44,748 nucleotides of DNA, from the sequence record MK931438.1; one strand, written 5' to 3'. The translations under genes and the position numbers were made by a program. Below are positions 31,069 to 37,185 of the stretch, in pieces. How positions within the stretch are numbered: position 1 is the first letter of the stretch; each line of letters opens with the position of its first letter. The stretch comes from Escherichia phage Schulenburg. The notes beneath the pieces were generated by a model that was given only the letters and a program-made list of their open reading frames with translations, was not told the DNA's origin and ran no database searches.

Positions 31069-31695
31069 TTAGCGGCGACGACGTTCGCGGCGCGGTGCTT
31101 CATCTTCTTCGTCGTCTTCCAGGTCAGTAACACTTGCAGAGACTTTAGAACCGCCAAACGCTTTACCTTCGCCGGCGTATTTAATCGCCAGCAGGTTAAC
31201 GCCGAGGACTTTATATTTCTGGCTGAACCAGATTTCAACGCTTACGTTAGCGACGCAGCCGCTGTAAACCTGTTCACCTTCAATCTGTTCGCCTTCGACG
31301 TTGAAGTCAGGCTCTACCTGAGTTTCACCTTTTTTAGAGGTTACAATCAGAGGTTGTTTCTGTGCCTTCGCTTTGAAGTAGAAGCCTTCCGGGAAGTCTT
31401 CAAAAGGATTATCACGCTCGGCGATGTCCTTAATAGCACATTTATCCATGTGCTTGCCTTCGCCGTAGTTTGACTTCATCCACTTCTCGGCAGCAGCGGC
31501 CCCCAGTGCTTCCTCTACAACCGCATAAACAGTGTCGTACATTTCGTCGATTTGCGCATGGTCAGACGGCAGAATGATAGTCGCGCTGTACTGACCTTTA
31601 GTGATAGAGCCATCGTCGTTTTCACGGTCTTTTTCGCGTTCGAATACGTTAACCCATGCAGTGTTTACTTTACGCAGATTTAATTTCAGTCCCAT
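31069..31695 (-). CDS. ssDNA-binding-like protein (DUF2815-like)
   Basis: 208 aa with acidic Asp/Glu-rich then Arg-rich C-terminal tail; adjacent to DUF2800-like nuclease and polymerase. Confidence 0.5.
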   Translation of the reverse strand: MGLKLNLRKVNTAWVNVFEREKDRENDDGSITKGQYSATIILPSDHAQIDEMYDTVYAVVEEALGAAAAEKWMKSNYGEGKHMDKCAIKDIAERDNPFEDFPEGFYFKAKAQKQPLIVTSKKGETQVEPDFNVEGEQIEGEQVYSGCVANVSVEIWFSQKYKVLGVNLLAIKYAGEGKAFGGSKVSASVTDLEDDEEDEAPRRERRRR

Positions 31696-31786: not shown

Positions 31787-33031
31787 TTATTCTAAATCTT
31801 CTTCACTAACCTGATTCCACTCAGGCCGTTTGTCGTCTGCCGTTGCTACACATGGTGCACCTGGCTTACGTGTGATGAAGTCTTTCAGTTCTTCTTCCGG
31901 TATAACTTTAACCGCTTCGGTCGGCGTCATGAGAACGACTTTGTTCAGCATAGTGCCGTATTTCTCAGCCACCTTATCAGCGTCTTTCCACGCACGATTA
32001 CCCGGACGACCCTCGACCAGCTTGTAACCCGGCACTTTCTTGCCAGAATGCAACGCGGCAGCCATAGCTTTCTCAACCTTGTCGATGTGCTGGCGCAACA
32101 ACGGCAGCTTCTCATACTCGGCGACGAGTTGCTCGGGTGTCAGTTCCAGCGCAAAGTCGTCCTCCAGTTCTTCCACCAGTACAGAATTAACAGTCTTCGT
32201 CCTGGCGACGCACTGTTCCGAGAACCGGCACCACTGGCAACCATCGACTGACGGCTTAAAGTCGGACGCTTTCAGGTTCTTCTTACCACGGAAGTACGCA
32301 TCGAGTGCTAACAGCGCGCGTTTATGTGCGAACTTAGTGAACAGTTCCAGGCCTTCAACCGAGATATCCCACTCCGACGCACCGCCAGCATACGGCTGGA
32401 AGATGACCAGACGAACAGTTGTTATGTTATATCGTCTCTTTAGTCGGCGATAAACACCGAGAGCGTAAAGCATAAGCTGCTTGTTTTCTTTCGCTTCGAC
32501 ACGATGCCGTCCGGTTTTCAGGTCACCAATAATGAGCATGTGCTCGTCGGTGTTCGCCAGTTCCTGCACGGCAACAAGGTCAGCGGTCCCGAACGTCTCA
32601 ACGCCTTCATATCCCGGATGCAGCACCTCTGTAAGATTGACGCGCATTTCCAGCTTGGCGTAAGTCGCTACGTCGATAATCGGTTTGCAGTAGTCGGTGT
32701 ACTTACGCACCTGCTCAATCATGTCCGCCGTAATAAGTACCGCACCTTTCATAAGGCTGATTAACGCCTTAATCTGGCCTTTGCCTTCATCCAGCACGTA
32801 AGCCCCGACTTCACGCTCTAACGGCAACGCAGTGCCTTTGATGTACTGGTTAAGGTGAATCTCAGCTATGGTGTGCATGGCTGTGCCCAATACGGCGGCT
32901 TTACCTGACGTATTTGGAATGTCTTTTTCACATGCCAGTGATGCACTGCACGTCAGCCACTTCTTAGCGCCTGACGGCGACAACAGGGCGTGCACATCGT
33001 TATTGCCGCCGCGTTCTTTTAGTTTCATCAT
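31787..33031 (-). CDS. PD-(D/E)XK Cas4-like nuclease (DUF2800-like)
   Basis: N-terminal HALLSPSGAKKWLTC, nuclease motif TADLVAV...IIGDLKTG, C-terminal Cys cluster CQWCRFSEQC. Confidence 0.7.
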   Translation of the reverse strand: MMKLKERGGNNDVHALLSPSGAKKWLTCSASLACEKDIPNTSGKAAVLGTAMHTIAEIHLNQYIKGTALPLEREVGAYVLDEGKGQIKALISLMKGAVLITADMIEQVRKYTDYCKPIIDVATYAKLEMRVNLTEVLHPGYEGVETFGTADLVAVQELANTDEHMLIIGDLKTGRHRVEAKENKQLMLYALGVYRRLKRRYNITTVRLVIFQPYAGGASEWDISVEGLELFTKFAHKRALLALDAYFRGKKNLKASDFKPSVDGCQWCRFSEQCVARTKTVNSVLVEELEDDFALELTPEQLVAEYEKLPLLRQHIDKVEKAMAAALHSGKKVPGYKLVEGRPGNRAWKDADKVAEKYGTMLNKVVLMTPTEAVKVIPEEELKDFITRKPGAPCVATADDKRPEWNQVSEEDLE

Positions 33032-33285
33032 TTGGACTCCACCGGTAACTCAGGTAAATACATCCAGTGTGTTATACCCATCTCTATATACCGTTTCGTG
33101 TATAACTGTTTTCCGTTTTCATCCAGACCGGCGGTGATATCGTCGAAGTAATCCTGGATGTGAACAAAATCAATTCCACCTTCAGGGAAGCCGTTGTCAT
33201 CATATTTACTTCCGTCTACGGAGCAAACCAAAACAGCATCATCTTTTGATTCCGGTAACGCATCATTTACGCTAACCCAATTCAT
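33028..33285 (-). CDS. hypothetical protein (85 aa)
   Basis: ORF with overlapping start/stop coupling in the leftward operon. Confidence 0.5.
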   Translation of the reverse strand: MNWVSVNDALPESKDDAVLVCSVDGSKYDDNGFPEGGIDFVHIQDYFDDITAGLDENGKQLYTKRYIEMGITHWMYLPELPVESK

Positions 33286-33554
33286 ACCCTAACCTCCCAC
33301 TGGTCGATTAAATGTCGTGTCTTATGGTCGCAGTGCATAGCCCATCCATACATCGACTCGAAGACATAAAAGTCACTTTTAACAAAAGTCGTGCGCTTAA
33401 TCTGCGACATGTGACGGCCTATATCTTTAGGCCGTGGTACTTTGCCTAAGTACGCCATCTCTTCCATCTGGTGTGCGCCGGACGGAGCGCGCAACAGCCA
33501 TAGCGCCTCTGCGTTATCCCGCCGGTCAACGGCGCGGTAGAGTTGGTAAATCAT
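33282..33554 (-). CDS. hypothetical protein (90 aa)
   Basis: ORF in leftward operon. Confidence 0.5.
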   Translation of the reverse strand: MIYQLYRAVDRRDNAEALWLLRAPSGAHQMEEMAYLGKVPRPKDIGRHMSQIKRTTFVKSDFYVFESMYGWAMHCDHKTRHLIDQWEVRV

Positions 33555-33597
33555 AATTACGACCCTCAGTTAAAGCGGCCCGAAGGCCGCGAGATAG

Positions 33598-34095
33598 TTA
33601 TTCTTCTTCGAAATACTTGTTCTTGATTGCCGTCAGGCGTTCCAGGTATTCGGCCAGGTCTTCGTCTTTAATCGCGGCAATCTTCATCTTCTTGCCGGTG
33701 AACTCTTCTAGCAGTTCATCCGAATCATCGCACGCGGCATCGCTCGGGCCTTCGTTAATTGCATCGTCGATAGCCTGAATCTGGTCGCGCAGAGACTGGT
33801 AATCGACTTCTTCCTTCTCTTCCGTCTCTGGCGTCGATTCCTCTACTTTAGCTTTACGCGGCTTACGTTTCGGCTTCTCTTCTTCCGCCGGTTTAGTGTC
33901 AACCAGGTCTTCACCTTCGACCGGGATTTCTTTTGTTTCTTCTTTAATACTTTCAGAGAACTGCTCAATTTTATGCGCGGCTACTGCGGCGGCCTCTTTG
34001 GCAGTAGTTGGCGCGAACTGTTTTGCACTGTTCGCAGCAATCAGTTCATGGGCAACTACGAAACGCTCCAGTAATTTCAGAAATTGTTCTAACAT
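33598..34095 (-). CDS. highly acidic protein (165 aa)
   Basis: Glu/Asp-rich, low-complexity central region; AGGAGAG SD; early position in leftward operon. Confidence 0.55.
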   Translation of the reverse strand: MLEQFLKLLERFVVAHELIAANSAKQFAPTTAKEAAAVAAHKIEQFSESIKEETKEIPVEGEDLVDTKPAEEEKPKRKPRKAKVEESTPETEEKEEVDYQSLRDQIQAIDDAINEGPSDAACDDSDELLEEFTGKKMKIAAIKDEDLAEYLERLTAIKNKYFEEE

Positions 34096-34110
34096 TTGTT
34101 TCTCTCCTGT

Positions 34111-34260
34111 TTATTTATACTTAACGGTTTTGACTAACTGGCCTGTTGCTTTGTCGAAGAAGCCAACACGATTGTTGCTTACGCTATATCGTGCGGTTTC
34201 TTTAGTTACAAATGCGATATCAAGGCCTAACAGAATCTTTGCTTTGCGGTTGTTAACCAT
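34111..34260 (-). CDS. small basic protein (49 aa, putative)
   Basis: Not in ORF track; AGGAGAG SD then ATG; first ORF after the 34291-34319 promoter. Confidence 0.35.
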   Translation of the reverse strand: MVNNRKAKILLGLDIAFVTKETARYSVSNNRVGFFDKATGQLVKTVKYK

Positions 34261-34290
34261 TGTGTCTCTCCTCTCGTTTGGTATGGGCTA

Positions 34291-34319
34291 ACTATAATAG
34301 CGAACTATTCACTTGTCAA
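34291..34319 (-). promoter_or_regulatory. type-A promoter with operator in spacer (TTGACA-17-TATAGT; AATAG-N4-CTATT)
   Basis: Minus-strand promoter divergent from the HTH regulator gene; inverted repeat gAATAGTTCGCTATTat in spacer. Confidence 0.55.
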
Positions 34320-34322
34320 TGG

Positions 34323-34352
34323 GCTTTTCTAAAATAATTAATATGGTACTAT
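34323..34352 (+). promoter_or_regulatory. candidate promoter of HTH regulator with half-palindrome AATATGGTACTATT
   Basis: TACTAT -10-like hexamer with weak -35; operator-like motif related to the type-B sites. Confidence 0.35.
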
Positions 34353-34383
34353 TCACGCATCAACTAACTAAGGAGTAACTGAC

Positions 34384-34599
34384 ATGCAACCATCTGAACT
34401 AGGCATCCGTGTAGAACAACGCCGTAAAGAACTCGGCATCTCCCAGCGCCGTCTGGCTGTCCTGACTGGCGTTTCCCAGGGCGCGATTAACCAACTGGCA
34501 CTTGGGGTAACTCAGGACGTCCGCCCGGCGACGCTGTTTAAACTGGCGGAAGTGCTGGAGGTAGACGCCAAGTGGCTGGCGTTAGGTGAAGGGGCTTAA
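34384..34599 (+). CDS. HTH XRE-family transcriptional regulator (Cro/CI-like)
   Basis: 71 aa; HTH region ELGISQRRLAVLTGVSQGAINQLALG; AAGGAG SD; divergent from operator-containing promoters. Confidence 0.7.
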   Translation: MQPSELGIRVEQRRKELGISQRRLAVLTGVSQGAINQLALGVTQDVRPATLFKLAEVLEVDAKWLALGEGA

Positions 34600-34630: not shown

Positions 34631-34927
34631 CTATTCCAAATTCTTAATCGTGTGTTGCACGTTCAGGTACTGAATCCACGCAAAAAGCCATACGCTTAAC
34701 GGAAAACTAACCACAGCTGCCGTTCTGAAAACAATGTGGACGGTACACGCTACAATTTCCTTTACCGTCATATCCAGAACGTGGCGCAATTCTGCAACTT
34801 CCTCTAACGCTAGCTTGCAAGCAGGCCACCATTGGTGTGCTACACAAGAAACACATGTCAGGTACGACGGGCGGTATCCAGCCCTCACTGCTTTAAACGG
34901 GTTATCTATAAAATCGTAGATATTCAT
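34631..34927 (-). CDS. hypothetical Cys-containing protein (98 aa)
   Basis: ORF downstream of primase in same operon; hydrophobic C-terminus. Confidence 0.5.
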   Translation of the reverse strand: MNIYDFIDNPFKAVRAGYRPSYLTCVSCVAHQWWPACKLALEEVAELRHVLDMTVKEIVACTVHIVFRTAAVVSFPLSVWLFAWIQYLNVQHTIKNLE

Positions 34928-37185
34928 TCCAAATCCTCTTCTGTCACTATCAGCATCTCATTCGGCTCGTATATTGTCTTCGGAATCTTGTTATCGTTTA
35001 TGCCCCACGGCAGCCGATATTGCTTAGGTATAGGCCTGTTGTTATTATCCAGCCCAGAGACGATAACCCCAGCCTCGTGCATCTCCTCCAGTTTCTTTCG
35101 AAGGTCGTTATTAGCGTTAATCGGTACACCATAACTATCTTCTTTCGCCGCTTTGACGATAGCGGACATAGAAAACCCTCGCTTGTCGTCGCCCTGCTCC
35201 TGCAATTTACCTAATGCGTAAATAACCGTAGCTTCTTTGGTACCCAGTTTCTCGAACTGGCCTACCTTTTCTTTAACGGCTTCCTTCTGTTCGTCGGTCA
35301 TACCTTCTACTTTCTTCACGAAGACAGAGAAGGCGTTAAAGTTAACAAAGACATCGATGTGCGGATTTCCCGCGTCAAAATCTCGCACATCGTCACTGCT
35401 ATACCCTTCCGGAAGCACCATGAAGTTGTGAGTTGGTTCTTTCTTTTCCGGTGGCTCCGCTATCTGAATCTTCTGTATTACGAATCCTCTGGCTTTCTGC
35501 CGTTCTCCGTTTCGGTTCTTTATGTGATACAGGTTTATCTCTAAGTTATTGTCGTTGTCTGGTTTATGCAGGAACATCCCGTTATCGATGGAGTTGTGAA
35601 AGTCGCTCCCACCCTTCGGCATCATGCCGTTTTCAGACGGTACGGTTTCGTCGATGTTTTTAGTCGGGTGCACCATAGCGCCTACCGCAGCGTTAAGCGT
35701 CGACGCTATTTCGTTAAGCGCCTGCGCCGCTTCTTTCATCGACCTGTTGTCGTTCTCGTCGAAGCCTGGTATGCAAGTTTGTAGGGTATCAAACGTAACC
35801 TTTACAATTTTCTCTTCACCGGCGACACGGCGCATCATTCTTACCGCCTGGCGGCGCCATGCTTCATCAAGTAAATTACACCCATCGGCAACACAATCGA
35901 TAATGTGCAAGCGGTCCAGGCTATCCCCGAGGGCAATCTGCAAAGACTTTTTATGTCGCCCGAACGACTGTGCGCCTTCACCGGCGAAAATGAACGCATG
36001 TCCTTCTGCAACCTCTGCCCCACCGAACGCATATCTTTTTTCGGCGGCAATAGCGGCGTCAATCGCCATACTAAATGTCGACTTACCAGTGTGGGACTTT
36101 GCGCAAATGTAAAACGATTCGTTAGTCTGCATAAGGCCGTCTACGACGGAGTAAGCAGGTTCTTTTTCAACTTCCGGCTCGTCTTCGAGGTCTTCCAGAG
36201 TGCAAGTTACAGGCTCTTCATTCTCTGTGCGGTGTAATTCCTCAATCTCTTCGTCCGGTAAATCAGGCAGAGCCGCACGAATGCTGTTAATACTGATAGG
36301 TTGCTTGTCTACGTTAAGCTCGTCCGGAAGACCGCACATACGCAGAGCCAAATGTTGTCGGCGGTTAAGCTCGGTGCAAGCGCCGTTGTTTGTGTGCTGG
36401 CACACGAAGCGCACTTCTTTACCATCAAGCATAATGCTGGTGGAGCCTTTGCCGGTGTGCAGGTGTTCGTTAGGGCAAGGCACTTCGTACCCGCGACCGG
36501 AAGATAAAGCGTCAAGGCCAAGCTCCGCTTCGCAGAAATGCGCTATATCCGCGTTAAGCCCATGCTCATCGGCAGCAAGGGTCTTAGCTTCACGTTTACG
36601 CAACCCCATTTCTTCGGCTTTCTTGATGTACCGCTCGGCACGGATAACACGCCCTTCTGTAACCGTTATCTTCGACTCTTTATGCGGCAGGTAGATAAGG
36701 CGGTTGCCATCTTCTGTGCAGTGGTCACGCAGCGCTTCGTCTATCTCTAACTCTGCACAAATGGCGCGTTGTACCATCCACGCATCGTTAGAGTTAAACG
36801 GCGTGCGTGCAGGTACAAGAACGCGAAAGGCGTAATCCCCGTTTTTACACGCGTGCTGATGCGACGCCGTTGTGTGCAGAATGTTGAAGAACGGCGCGTT
36901 CTTGAATTTGCGCGTCAGGTCGCGGTACTGAGCGCGGTTGAGATGGTCGAAGTCGAACTTAACCACACTGTCTTCCAGAATCGCGTTCTTACGGCGACCG
37001 CCAACCGGCGCAATAGCTTTCTGCTTAATCTTGGCCGCGTCGTACTCTTCCTTAGTCCATGACGGGTCTACGGACAGACGCTTCGATGTATCGCAGACAT
37101 ACTCTACAAACTGCTCCAGTGGCATTTCACGGGCTACCGGGTTTTTATCGAATGTGTTACGCAGCGTTGCAAAAACAATATTCAT
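34924..37185 (-). CDS. DNA primase/helicase (P-loop NTPase)
   Basis: 753 aa; Walker A AKSHTGKST; large N-terminal domain; position in replication module. Confidence 0.65.
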   Translation of the reverse strand: MNIVFATLRNTFDKNPVAREMPLEQFVEYVCDTSKRLSVDPSWTKEEYDAAKIKQKAIAPVGGRRKNAILEDSVVKFDFDHLNRAQYRDLTRKFKNAPFFNILHTTASHQHACKNGDYAFRVLVPARTPFNSNDAWMVQRAICAELEIDEALRDHCTEDGNRLIYLPHKESKITVTEGRVIRAERYIKKAEEMGLRKREAKTLAADEHGLNADIAHFCEAELGLDALSSGRGYEVPCPNEHLHTGKGSTSIMLDGKEVRFVCQHTNNGACTELNRRQHLALRMCGLPDELNVDKQPISINSIRAALPDLPDEEIEELHRTENEEPVTCTLEDLEDEPEVEKEPAYSVVDGLMQTNESFYICAKSHTGKSTFSMAIDAAIAAEKRYAFGGAEVAEGHAFIFAGEGAQSFGRHKKSLQIALGDSLDRLHIIDCVADGCNLLDEAWRRQAVRMMRRVAGEEKIVKVTFDTLQTCIPGFDENDNRSMKEAAQALNEIASTLNAAVGAMVHPTKNIDETVPSENGMMPKGGSDFHNSIDNGMFLHKPDNDNNLEINLYHIKNRNGERQKARGFVIQKIQIAEPPEKKEPTHNFMVLPEGYSSDDVRDFDAGNPHIDVFVNFNAFSVFVKKVEGMTDEQKEAVKEKVGQFEKLGTKEATVIYALGKLQEQGDDKRGFSMSAIVKAAKEDSYGVPINANNDLRKKLEEMHEAGVIVSGLDNNNRPIPKQYRLPWGINDNKIPKTIYEPNEMLIVTEEDLE

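What the first reader, a model, noticed from the sequence alone, without database searches (positions are those of the whole stretch)
33598..34095. Highly acidic, low-complexity early protein (candidate DNA mimic / anti-restriction factor)
A 165-aa protein with a long Glu/Asp-rich central segment is the first sizeable gene after the operator-controlled leftward promoter at about 34291. Acidic DNA-mimic proteins encoded early by phages commonly inhibit restriction-modification or other DNA-binding host defences; it could instead be a replication accessory protein.
Basis: inference. Interest (0 to 1): 0.45.

Follow-up and report, generated by a model that had tools for sequence, protein, structure and literature searches.

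The report
Conserved acidic partner of phage exonuclease
The ORF is a real, strongly acidic 165-residue phage protein, but the evidence points away from an anti-restriction DNA mimic: it is the conserved, uncharacterised lead gene of the phage's exonuclease / annealing-protein / DNA-polymerase operon and most likely a flexible adaptor for that machinery.

Summary
The window is a Kagunavirus (99.9% identical to Escherichia phage Snoke). The ORF at 33598..34095(-) is real: 165 aa, pI 4.56, net charge -19, annotated as hypothetical protein CPT_Snoke_048 and matching phrog_3127 (unknown function). It has three parts. The first is an almost invariant N-terminal amphipathic helix (residues 1-26). 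The second is a disordered E/K/P-rich spacer (27-96) that evolves fast and is not consistently acidic across the family. The third is a very acidic three-helix bundle (97-165). It is a core gene, found upstream of the DUF2800 (Cas4-like) exonuclease, gp2.5-type SSB and PolA operon in 64 of 64 related metagenomic loci. Remote homologues with the same layout sit directly upstream of DUF2800 in Chi, APSE-7 and a Staphylococcus phage. Its sequence tracks the exonuclease, not the mosaic helicase-primase. Nothing links it to Ocr, ArdA or Gam. BASEL Kagunavirus Bas70 carries an 80%-identical copy and is still restricted about 10^-5 by EcoKI and by type II and III systems. My best reading, at modest confidence, is a non-enzymatic tether or regulator of the exonuclease/annealing module. 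The function is untested.

The parts
33598..34095 (-). CDS of the 165-aa acidic protein ('X'; = CPT_Snoke_048, phrog_3127), stop codon included
34018..34095 (-). Residues 1-26: N-terminal amphipathic helix MLEQFLKLLERFVVAHELIAANSAKQ. It is the most conserved element of the whole module.
   Evidence: AF2 helix 2-26, pLDDT about 81. Identity is 87% across genera where the helicase-primase is 31-34% identical. dN/dS 0.02-0.04.
33808..34017 (-). Residues 27-96: disordered E/K/P-rich polyampholyte spacer, variable in length (33-91 aa in the family)
   Evidence: pLDDT about 50; net charge +4 to -11 across the family; dN/dS 0.29-0.59
33847..33876 (-). Residues 74-83: basic patch KPKRKPRKAK inside the spacer, recurrent in the family
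   Evidence: alignments; sequences
33601..33807 (-). Residues 97-165: acidic three-helix bundle (net -12), ending in KYFEEE
   Evidence: AF2 helices 99-115, 119-133, 144-163, pLDDT >90; net -8 to -20 across the family; dN/dS 0-0.12; only generic three-helix-bundle fold matches
34102..34108 (-). Shine-Dalgarno AGGAGAG, 6 nt upstream of the ATG
   Evidence: sequence read; annotated RBS in Snoke
34111..34260 (-). 49-aa ORF between the promoter and X. Not annotated in Jersey, Ro145c2YLVW or VSe103.
34291..34319 (-). Leftward sigma70-type promoter match TTGACA-17-TATAGT (11/12)
   Evidence: consensus match only
34295..34363 (.). Two 25-bp direct repeats (34295-34319, 34339-34363), candidate operators for the adjacent Cro-like HTH gene (34384..34599 +)
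   Evidence: HTH annotated
33575..33590 (-). GC-rich hairpin GCGGCC-CGAA-GGCCGC (as read on the + strand) immediately after the stop codon of X; no good T-run follows
31787..33031 (-). DUF2800 / PD-(D/E)XK Cas4-like exonuclease, the proposed partner. X always lies upstream of it on the same strand.
31069..31695 (-). gp2.5/Enc34-type ssDNA-binding and annealing protein of the same operon, with an acidic-then-Arg-rich C-terminal tail

Best explanation
X is the conserved lead gene of the phage's recombination/replication operon (DUF2800 Cas4-like exonuclease, gp2.5-type SSB/annealing protein, family-A DNA polymerase). It encodes a non-enzymatic, three-part protein.

- A coiled-coil-like N-terminal helix, used for self-association or docking.
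- A long, flexible E/K/P-rich spacer.
- A small, very acidic three-helix bundle that docks on a partner.

My proposal is that it works as a flexible tether or regulator of the exonuclease/annealing machinery. It would couple the nuclease to the SSB-coated DNA or to the replisome, or hold the nuclease in check. A functional parallel is the Red-beta C-terminal three-helix bundle, which links lambda Exo, Beta and host SSB.

Shown here:
- the gene is real and under purifying selection;
- the domain layout (predicted, not solved);
- invariable synteny with the exonuclease;
- sequence co-variation with the exonuclease;
- remote homologues in the same position in very distant phages;
- no relation to known DNA mimics;
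- phages carrying the gene are restriction-sensitive.

Inferred, not shown:
- the adaptor role;
- the identity of the partner;
- the timing of expression.
For: Synteny:
- X precedes DUF2800, the gp2.5-type SSB and PolA in Snoke, Serratia Otaku, Salmonella ZS, Enterobacter phiEap-2, HK578, eiAU-183 and two metagenomic contigs.
- It is present upstream of the exonuclease on the same strand in 64 of 64 IMG/VR loci of the clade that include upstream sequence.
- The ORFs between X and the exonuclease come and go (gap 41-1268 nt). In VSe103, X abuts the exonuclease.

Distant modules:
- In 11 of 12 sampled loci whose exonuclease is only 30-34% identical, a protein with the same helix/linker/helical-domain layout lies directly upstream of DUF2800. 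A shorter 103-aa ORF occupies that place in the twelfth, L082. The stop and start codons often overlap.
- The same holds in Staphylococcus phage LH1 and APSE-7. In Chi the chi_044 protein is one gene away from the exonuclease, with chi_045 between them.
- An HMM of these distant proteins, searched against 9,093 ORFs, returns only X-family proteins after its own members: 23 consecutive hits, best E 5e-5, most of them above E = 0.01.
- hhalign of the two alignments gives 63% probability and E 7e-5 over the C-terminal domain.

Co-variation of the structured parts of X:
- with the exonuclease, Pearson 0.97;
- with the SSB, Pearson 0.89;
- with the helicase-primase, Pearson 0.68;
- within the close clade, Spearman 0.42, 0.17 and 0.01 respectively.
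The helicase-primase is mosaic and flips orientation between clades.

Architecture: AF2, region-specific dN/dS and per-region charge.

Literature: the duf2800-gp2.5-polA module is recognised (PMC8093625). That paper describes a three-gene module and does not list an upstream gene.
Against: - No interaction has been shown or even modelled. The tools gave no complex prediction or contact map.
- The co-variation with the exonuclease could reflect physical linkage alone.
- An N-helix that is 87% identical across genera while the phage replisome proteins diverge to 31-60% would also fit binding to an invariant host protein.
- The remote homology rests on moderate statistics.
- No knockout or expression data exist for this gene.
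Confidence: 0.45

Rival explanations
1. X is an inhibitor of a host nuclease, a functional analogue of lambda Gam or T7 gp5.9. It would be encoded with the phage's own exonuclease/annealase, as gam is with bet and exo, and would block RecBCD through its acidic domain or N-terminal helix.
For: - Its operon position upstream of an exonuclease/annealase pair resembles gam-bet-exo.
- Conserved acidity of the folded domain.
- A near-invariant N-helix is compatible with an invariant enterobacterial target.
- Kagunavirus and Dhillonvirus, both carriers of X, are sensitive to P2 Old, a system classically linked to loss of RecBCD activity.
Against: - No sequence or fold relation to Gam (hhalign 0.1%) or to any RecBCD inhibitor in the PDB.
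- The three HK578 escapers of OLD map to gp43, to the helicase-primase gp46 and to the gp45-46 promoter region, not to gp44, which is X. The window's homologue of gp43 is the neighbouring 90-aa ORF.
- Remote homologues occur in phages of Gram-positive and Bacteroidota hosts, with pI up to 9.0. A charge mimic would not be expected there.
Confidence: 0.17
2. X is a host-takeover protein aimed at some other conserved host factor, for example DnaB, SSB, the beta-clamp, RNA polymerase or a nucleoid protein. It would recruit that factor to the phage replisome or neutralise it.
For: - The extreme conservation of the N-helix relative to all neighbouring phage proteins.
- A strong Shine-Dalgarno sequence and a promoter-proximal position suggest abundant expression.
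- Small helical acidic phage proteins often bind host proteins (general knowledge).
Against: - Takeover genes are usually patchy and sit in variable regions. X is fixed in the operon across families, and in distant phages of unrelated hosts.
- No recognisable clamp-binding or SSB-tip-like motif stood out when the alignments were read by eye.
- No data point to any particular host target.
Confidence: 0.2
3. One reading: X is an Ocr/ArdA-type DNA mimic that blocks type I restriction-modification, BREX or other DNA-binding defences.
For: - High net negative charge.
- The gene is promoter-proximal.
- BREX and many other defences were not tested on these phages.
Against: - Bas70, with an 80%-identical X and an essentially identical C-terminal domain, is restricted 5e-6 to 1.3e-5 by EcoKI and 1e-4 to 1e-3 by EcoCFT_I, and strongly by EcoRI, EcoRV, EcoCFT_II and EcoPI. 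Bas71 and Bas72 behave similarly. The authors describe 'high sensitivity to RM systems'.
- hhalign against T7 Ocr gives 0.4% probability, and no DNA-mimic structure appears in the fold searches.
- The acidic middle is disordered and charge-variable.
- It is a core syntenic gene with non-acidic remote homologues.
Confidence: 0.05
4. X is a late or structural (scaffold-like or virion) protein, as the propagated name '13.88 kDa late protein' suggests.
For: - Many GenBank records carry that name. It traces to Salmonella phage MB78 entry Q9T1Z8.
- A weak PHROG hit to a 'major tail protein' family, E 8e-4 with no significant domain.
Against: - The gene sits in the replication/recombination operon behind a sigma70-type promoter, far from the structural genes, in every genome examined.
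- The MB78 entry is a 123-aa fragment, and the basis of its name could not be checked here.
- The tail-protein hit is compositional.
Confidence: 0.03

Closest known systems
phrog_3127 (uncharacterised): HK578 gp44, Sodalis phage SO-1 gp46, Edwardsiella phage eiAU gp46, Salmonella phage MB78 '13.88 kDa late protein', Bas70_0047
   Same: Full-length homologues (E 6e-68 to the PHROG profile). They share the helix, spacer and acidic-bundle layout and the position at the head of the exonuclease-SSB-PolA operon.
   Different: None in kind. The window's protein is 100% identical to a deposited protein. No member has a tested function.
Uncharacterised proteins directly upstream of DUF2800 in distant phages: Chi chi_044, Staphylococcus phage LH1 ORF37, APSE-7 ORF19, and metagenomic members of phrog_408, 18562, 22695, 5053 and 3709
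   Same: An N-terminal amphipathic helix, a P/A/E/K-rich linker and a C-terminal helical domain of about 55-65 aa with a shared motif (LL.eyGv.k...L). They lie upstream of DUF2800, often with overlapping stop and start codons; in Chi one gene (chi_045) lies between. Profile-level similarity is shown.
   Different: Only remote similarity (hhalign 63%). They are much less acidic (pI 4.4-9.0). The N-helix sequence differs and linker length ranges widely (APSE-7 ORF19 is 305 aa).
Red-beta C-terminal domain of phage lambda, a three-helix bundle that binds lambda Exo and the host SSB tail (PDB 6M9K, 8TFU)
   Different: No detectable homology (hhalign 0.3%). The fold match is generic. In lambda the bundle is part of the annealase itself, whereas here it is a separate protein. 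The interaction is not shown for X.
T7 Ocr (gp0.3) and ArdA DNA-mimic anti-restriction proteins
   Same: Small, helical and strongly acidic.
   Different: No sequence, profile or fold relation. In X much of the charge sits in a disordered polyampholyte. X is a core operon gene rather than a leading-end accessory gene. Phages carrying X are fully restricted by type I systems.
Lambda Gam and T7 gp5.9 RecBCD inhibitors
   Same: Encoded with a phage recombination module; helical and acidic.
   Different: No homology and no fold match. The HK578 OLD-escape mutations fall in neighbouring genes, not in the X homologue.

Membership tests
phrog_3127 (function unknown) | Full-length match to the family profile | tested here: met
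   E 6.1e-68, residues 1-165 on profile positions 1-177 of 178. HK578 gp44, Otaku and two metagenomic members also match.
phrog_3127 (function unknown) | Position at the head of the DUF2800 exonuclease, gp2.5-type SSB and PolA operon | tested here: met
   64 of 64 IMG/VR loci
Wider class of DUF2800-upstream proteins (phrog_408, 18562 and others) | Profile-level similarity of the C-terminal helical domain | tested here: inconclusive
   hhalign probability 63%, E 7e-5 over 57 columns. The reciprocal HMM search is highly specific, with 23 of 23 next-best hits in the X family, but the E-values are modest and most lie above 0.01 (best 5e-5). Otaku X hits phrog_18562 at E 0.003.
Wider class of DUF2800-upstream proteins (phrog_408, 18562 and others) | Same three-part layout and a position immediately upstream of DUF2800 | tested here: met
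Ocr / ArdA DNA-mimic anti-restriction proteins | Sequence or profile similarity to the family | tested here: not met
   hhalign against T7 Ocr gives 0.4% probability. phmmer and hmmsearch against all PDB sequences at E<=10 give no hit. No Pfam hit above threshold.
Ocr / ArdA DNA-mimic anti-restriction proteins | A rigid folded surface displaying a DNA-like array of carboxylates | tested here: not met
Ocr / ArdA DNA-mimic anti-restriction proteins | Carrier phages escape type I restriction | tested here: not met
   From published raw data, not my own experiment. Bas70 (X 80% identical) has EOP 5e-6 to 1.3e-5 on EcoKI and 1e-4 to 1e-3 on EcoCFT_I. Bas71 and Bas72 are restricted to a similar degree.
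Ocr / ArdA DNA-mimic anti-restriction proteins | Inhibition of BREX | not testable with these tools
   No BREX plating data for Guernseyvirinae came up in the one search made. One search returned three papers that hold both terms, and I did not read them for this point.
Lambda Gam-type RecBCD inhibitors | Homology or fold similarity to Gam | tested here: not met
Lambda Gam-type RecBCD inhibitors | Inhibits RecBCD, or triggers P2 Old | not testable with these tools
   Indirect evidence only. Carriers are Old-sensitive, but the HK578 escapers map to gp43, gp46 and the gp45 promoter region, not to gp44.
Red-beta C-terminal adaptor domain | Homology to Red-beta | tested here: not met
Red-beta C-terminal adaptor domain | Binds the cognate exonuclease and/or an SSB tail | not testable with these tools
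   No complex prediction or contact output was available. The only indirect support is co-variation with the exonuclease and overlapping stop/start codons in distant homologues.

The most novel reading that the evidence does not exclude
X and its remote homologues are a previously unrecognised fourth universal component of the widespread duf2800-gp2.5-polA phage module. DUF2800 was found in 1,551 phage records from Gram-negative, Gram-positive and Bacteroidota hosts. On this reading X is a multivalent flexible tether that physically couples the Cas4-like exonuclease to the gp2.5-type annealing protein or replisome. It would do as a separate subunit what Red-beta's C-terminal domain does in lambda Red.
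Probability: 0.3. Interest if true: 0.55.

Novelty: new variant of a known kind. Interest (0 to 1): 0.36.

Why it matters
If the adaptor reading is right, the module described in the literature as three genes (duf2800-gp2.5-polA) has a fourth conserved part. That part would be needed to understand, or to reconstitute, gp2.5-type recombination. This matters for recombineering tools built from such modules, and for explaining how Cas4-like phage nucleases are targeted or restrained.

It also corrects two things. An attractive anti-defence candidate turns out to be poorly supported. The label '13.88 kDa late protein' carried by many GenBank records also looks misleading.

As it stands, the gene is an already deposited hypothetical protein of unknown function, so the practical weight is modest.

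Tried and rejected
Searches for a known relative, all without a useful result:
- Pfam: nothing above threshold.
- PADLOC: nothing.
- PDB sequence searches with the single protein and with a 22-sequence profile: no hit at E<=10.
- BFVD: only family members.
- afdb50: not available.
- hhalign against T7 Ocr, lambda Gam and lambda Bet: all below 1% probability.
- An exhaustive HMMER search of 1.84 billion cluster representatives: only 29 hits and no domain fusions, apart from one protein with a duplicated C-terminal domain.

Literature:
- Nothing on phrog_3127.
- Nothing useful on '13.88 kDa' or on MB78.
- The K1B4 RNA-seq paper contains the homologue (gene _003) but does not state its temporal class.
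- tblastn of one distant analogue (L086) against cultured phages found nothing.

Ideas considered and dropped:
- A transmembrane N-terminus. The helix is amphipathic with a heptad-like pattern.
- A beta-clamp-binding motif. Q4 is not conserved.
- A HeH/SAP-like DNA-binding motif in the C-terminal domain. There is no fold support, and the domain is strongly acidic in this clade.
- The antisense 131-aa ORF at 33896..34291(+). It lies antisense to X and to the 49-aa ORF, and I did not examine it further.

I did not try a fused-chain AlphaFold run for complexes.

Full report
**What the window is.** The 2.4 kb around the finding is 99.9% identical to Escherichia phage Snoke, a Kagunavirus of the Guernseyvirinae. 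The ORF corresponds to CPT_Snoke_048, annotated 'hypothetical protein'. An identical protein is on record from a 44,748-bp contig.

**The observation.**
- The ORF at 33598..34095(-) encodes 165 aa behind a strong Shine-Dalgarno sequence.
- It has 43 D+E and 24 K+R, net charge about -19 and pI 4.56.
- It carries the highest D+E fraction and the largest negative charge among 68 non-overlapping ORFs of the window.
- tblastn finds it in 484 phage records, and about 2,377 database proteins match it.
- Codon-level comparison with four relatives gives dN/dS of 0.02-0.04 for residues 1-26, 0.29-0.59 for residues 27-96 and 0-0.12 for residues 97-165. It is therefore a real, selected gene.
- The leftward promoter is a good consensus match: TTGACA-17-TATAGT, 34319..34291. 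Two 25-bp direct repeats lie beside a Cro-like HTH gene.
- A 49-aa ORF sits between the promoter and the gene.

**Anatomy.**
- AlphaFold2, run on a 20-sequence alignment, predicts an N-terminal helix at 2-26 (pLDDT about 81). Residues 27-97 are disordered (pLDDT about 50). Residues 99-163 form a confident three-helix bundle (pLDDT > 90).
- Alignments across the family show the N-helix MLxKFLxLLERFVVAHELIAANS to be nearly invariant.
- The N-helix is 87% identical between genera whose helicase-primases are 31-34% identical, whose SSBs are 45-51% identical and whose exonucleases are about 60% identical.
- The middle is an E/K/P-rich polyampholyte. Its length ranges from 33 to 91 aa and its net charge from +4 to -11.
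- The conserved acidity lies in the C-terminal bundle, net -8 to -20.

**Context.**
- In every relative examined, X heads an operon of DUF2800 (PD-(D/E)XK, Cas4-like) exonuclease, Enc34/gp2.5-type SSB, PolA and an SNF2 helicase. It sits next to an HTH regulator and the helicase-primase.
- The family (phrog_3127, function unknown) also includes Dhillonvirus HK578 gp44 and Edwardsiella phage eiAU gp46.
- An exhaustive search of 1.84 billion cluster representatives found only 29 matches, so the recognisable family is narrow.
- I scanned IMG/VR with an exonuclease alignment. X was present, upstream and on the same strand, in 64 of 64 loci of the clade that include upstream sequence.
- The accessory ORFs between X and the exonuclease vary (gap 41-1268 nt), and the helicase-primase lies in either orientation.
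- In Salmonella virus VSe103, X directly abuts the exonuclease.

**A wider class.**
- In the 12 distant DUF2800 loci recovered (exonuclease 30-34% identical), the ORF directly upstream of the exonuclease has the same layout in 11. That layout is an N-terminal amphipathic helix, a P/A/E/K-rich linker and a C-terminal helical domain of about 55 aa. A shorter 103-aa ORF occupies the position in the twelfth (L082).
- Stop and start codons often overlap, and pI ranges from 4.4 to 9.0.
- These proteins fall into several PHROGs, all of unknown function. One of them, phrog_18562, is also weakly hit by the Otaku X protein.
- hhalign of the two alignments gives 63% probability and E 7e-5 over the C-terminal domain.
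- An HMM of the distant set, searched against 9,093 ORFs, returns only X-family proteins after its own members: 23 consecutive hits, best E 5e-5, with most above E = 0.01.
- The same kind of protein precedes DUF2800 in Staphylococcus phage LH1 (ORF37) and APSE-7 (ORF19, 305 aa). In phage Chi the candidate is chi_044, one gene away.
- DUF2800 exonucleases occur in 1,551 phage records.
- The literature recognises a duf2800-gp2.5-polA module (PMC8093625). That paper describes three genes and does not list an upstream one.

**Which partner?**
- Pairwise distances of X's structured parts across 64 loci correlate with those of the exonuclease (Pearson 0.97) and the SSB (0.89) far better than with those of the helicase-primase (0.68).
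- Within the close clade the Spearman values are 0.42, 0.17 and 0.01.
- The helicase-primase is mosaic: 65% identical between Snoke and Bas70, against 94-96% for the exonuclease and SSB.
- This fits X and the exonuclease being one inherited unit, although physical linkage alone could produce it.

**Against the DNA-mimic or anti-restriction reading.**
- Pfam, PADLOC and PDB sequence searches give nothing.
- hhalign against T7 Ocr and lambda Gam stays below 1% probability.
- The BASEL collection phenotyped Kagunaviruses directly. Bas70 carries an X that is 80% identical overall, with a C-terminal domain that differs at one residue.
- Bas70 plates at 5e-6 to 1.3e-5 on EcoKI, 1e-4 to 1e-3 on EcoCFT_I, and 1e-6 to 7e-5 on EcoRI, EcoRV, EcoCFT_II and EcoPI. 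Bas71 and Bas72 are restricted to a similar degree (PMC11990801 S1 Data).
- The authors summarise this as 'high sensitivity to RM systems'. BREX was not tested.

**The Gam-like rival.**
- Kagunavirus and Dhillonvirus are sensitive to P2 Old.
- A 2026 preprint isolated three Old escapers of HK578. They map to gp43 (a frameshift), the helicase-primase gp46 and the gp45-46 promoter region, not to gp44, which is X.
- The window's homologue of gp43 is the neighbouring 90-aa ORF at 33282..33554 (31% identity).
- This weakens the idea that X is the RecBCD-related trigger, but three escapers cannot exclude it.

**Verdict.**
- The headline interpretation is not supported.
- My best explanation, at confidence about 0.45, is a non-enzymatic tether or regulator. 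The N-helix would serve for self-association or docking, the spacer for reach and the acidic bundle for partner binding, all serving the exonuclease/annealing module.
- The partner and the mechanism are inferred, not shown.
- The name '13.88 kDa late protein' seen in many records traces to a 123-aa MB78 entry. I could not verify its basis.
- Whether the gene is early is also unproven. The one Kagunavirus RNA-seq study contains the homologue (gene _003) but does not report its temporal class.

Noticed in passing
window 33282-33554 (-): This 90-aa ORF just downstream of X is a homologue (31% identity, E 4e-9) of HK578 gp43. A frameshift in gp43 lets HK578 escape the P2 OLD defence, according to a 2026 preprint. 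The ORF is absent from Salmonella virus VSe103, so it is an accessory gene and a candidate OLD trigger in Kagunaviruses.
   Followed up: partly
window 31069-31695 (-), C-terminus: The gp2.5/Enc34-type SSB ends in an acidic run followed by an Arg-rich tip (DLEDDEEDEAPRRERRRR). Bas70, Otaku and HK578 have the same Arg-rich tip, and ZS, phiEap-2 and L007 have mixed acidic and basic tails. The tails described for T7 gp2.5 and Enc34 ORF6 are acidic. It could be a docking site for the acidic C-terminal domain of X, but that is speculation.
   Followed up: partly
window 34295-34319 and 34339-34363: Two 25-bp direct repeats (core ACTATTCAC), 44 bp apart. One overlaps the -35 of the leftward promoter. 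The other lies just upstream of the Cro-like HTH gene (34384..34599 +). They are candidate operators.
   Followed up: partly
window 34924-37185 (-) and related loci: The helicase-primase gene is mosaic. It is only 65% identical between Snoke and Bas70, while the exonuclease and SSB are 94-96% identical. Its orientation relative to the exonuclease operon differs between clades (34 same, 28 opposite among 62 loci).
   Followed up: partly
window 33575-33590: A GC-rich hairpin (GCGGCC-CGAA-GGCCGC on the + strand) lies immediately after the stop codon of X and before the next gene's ribosome-binding site. No proper T-run follows. It could be an attenuator or an RNA-stabilising element that sets X expression above the downstream genes.
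   Followed up: no
window 33028-33285 (-): An 85-aa DUF551 protein (pI 4.15). Per residue it is more acidic than X, and it lies between X and the exonuclease. It is one of the variable accessory ORFs of this slot.
   Followed up: no
GenBank records of Guernseyvirinae: The product name '13.88 kDa late protein' has spread through many records for this 16-19 kDa protein of the replication operon. It comes from a 123-aa Salmonella phage MB78 entry (Q9T1Z8) and looks misleading.
   Followed up: partly
L095 (APSE-7) 1582-2499; L094 (Chi) 1670-2086; L096 (Staph LH1) 2127-2489: Distant phages carry a protein with the same helix, linker and helical-domain layout upstream of their DUF2800 exonuclease: immediately upstream in APSE-7 and LH1, one gene away in Chi. 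In APSE-7 it is 305 aa with a very long P/K/E/A linker.
   Followed up: partly
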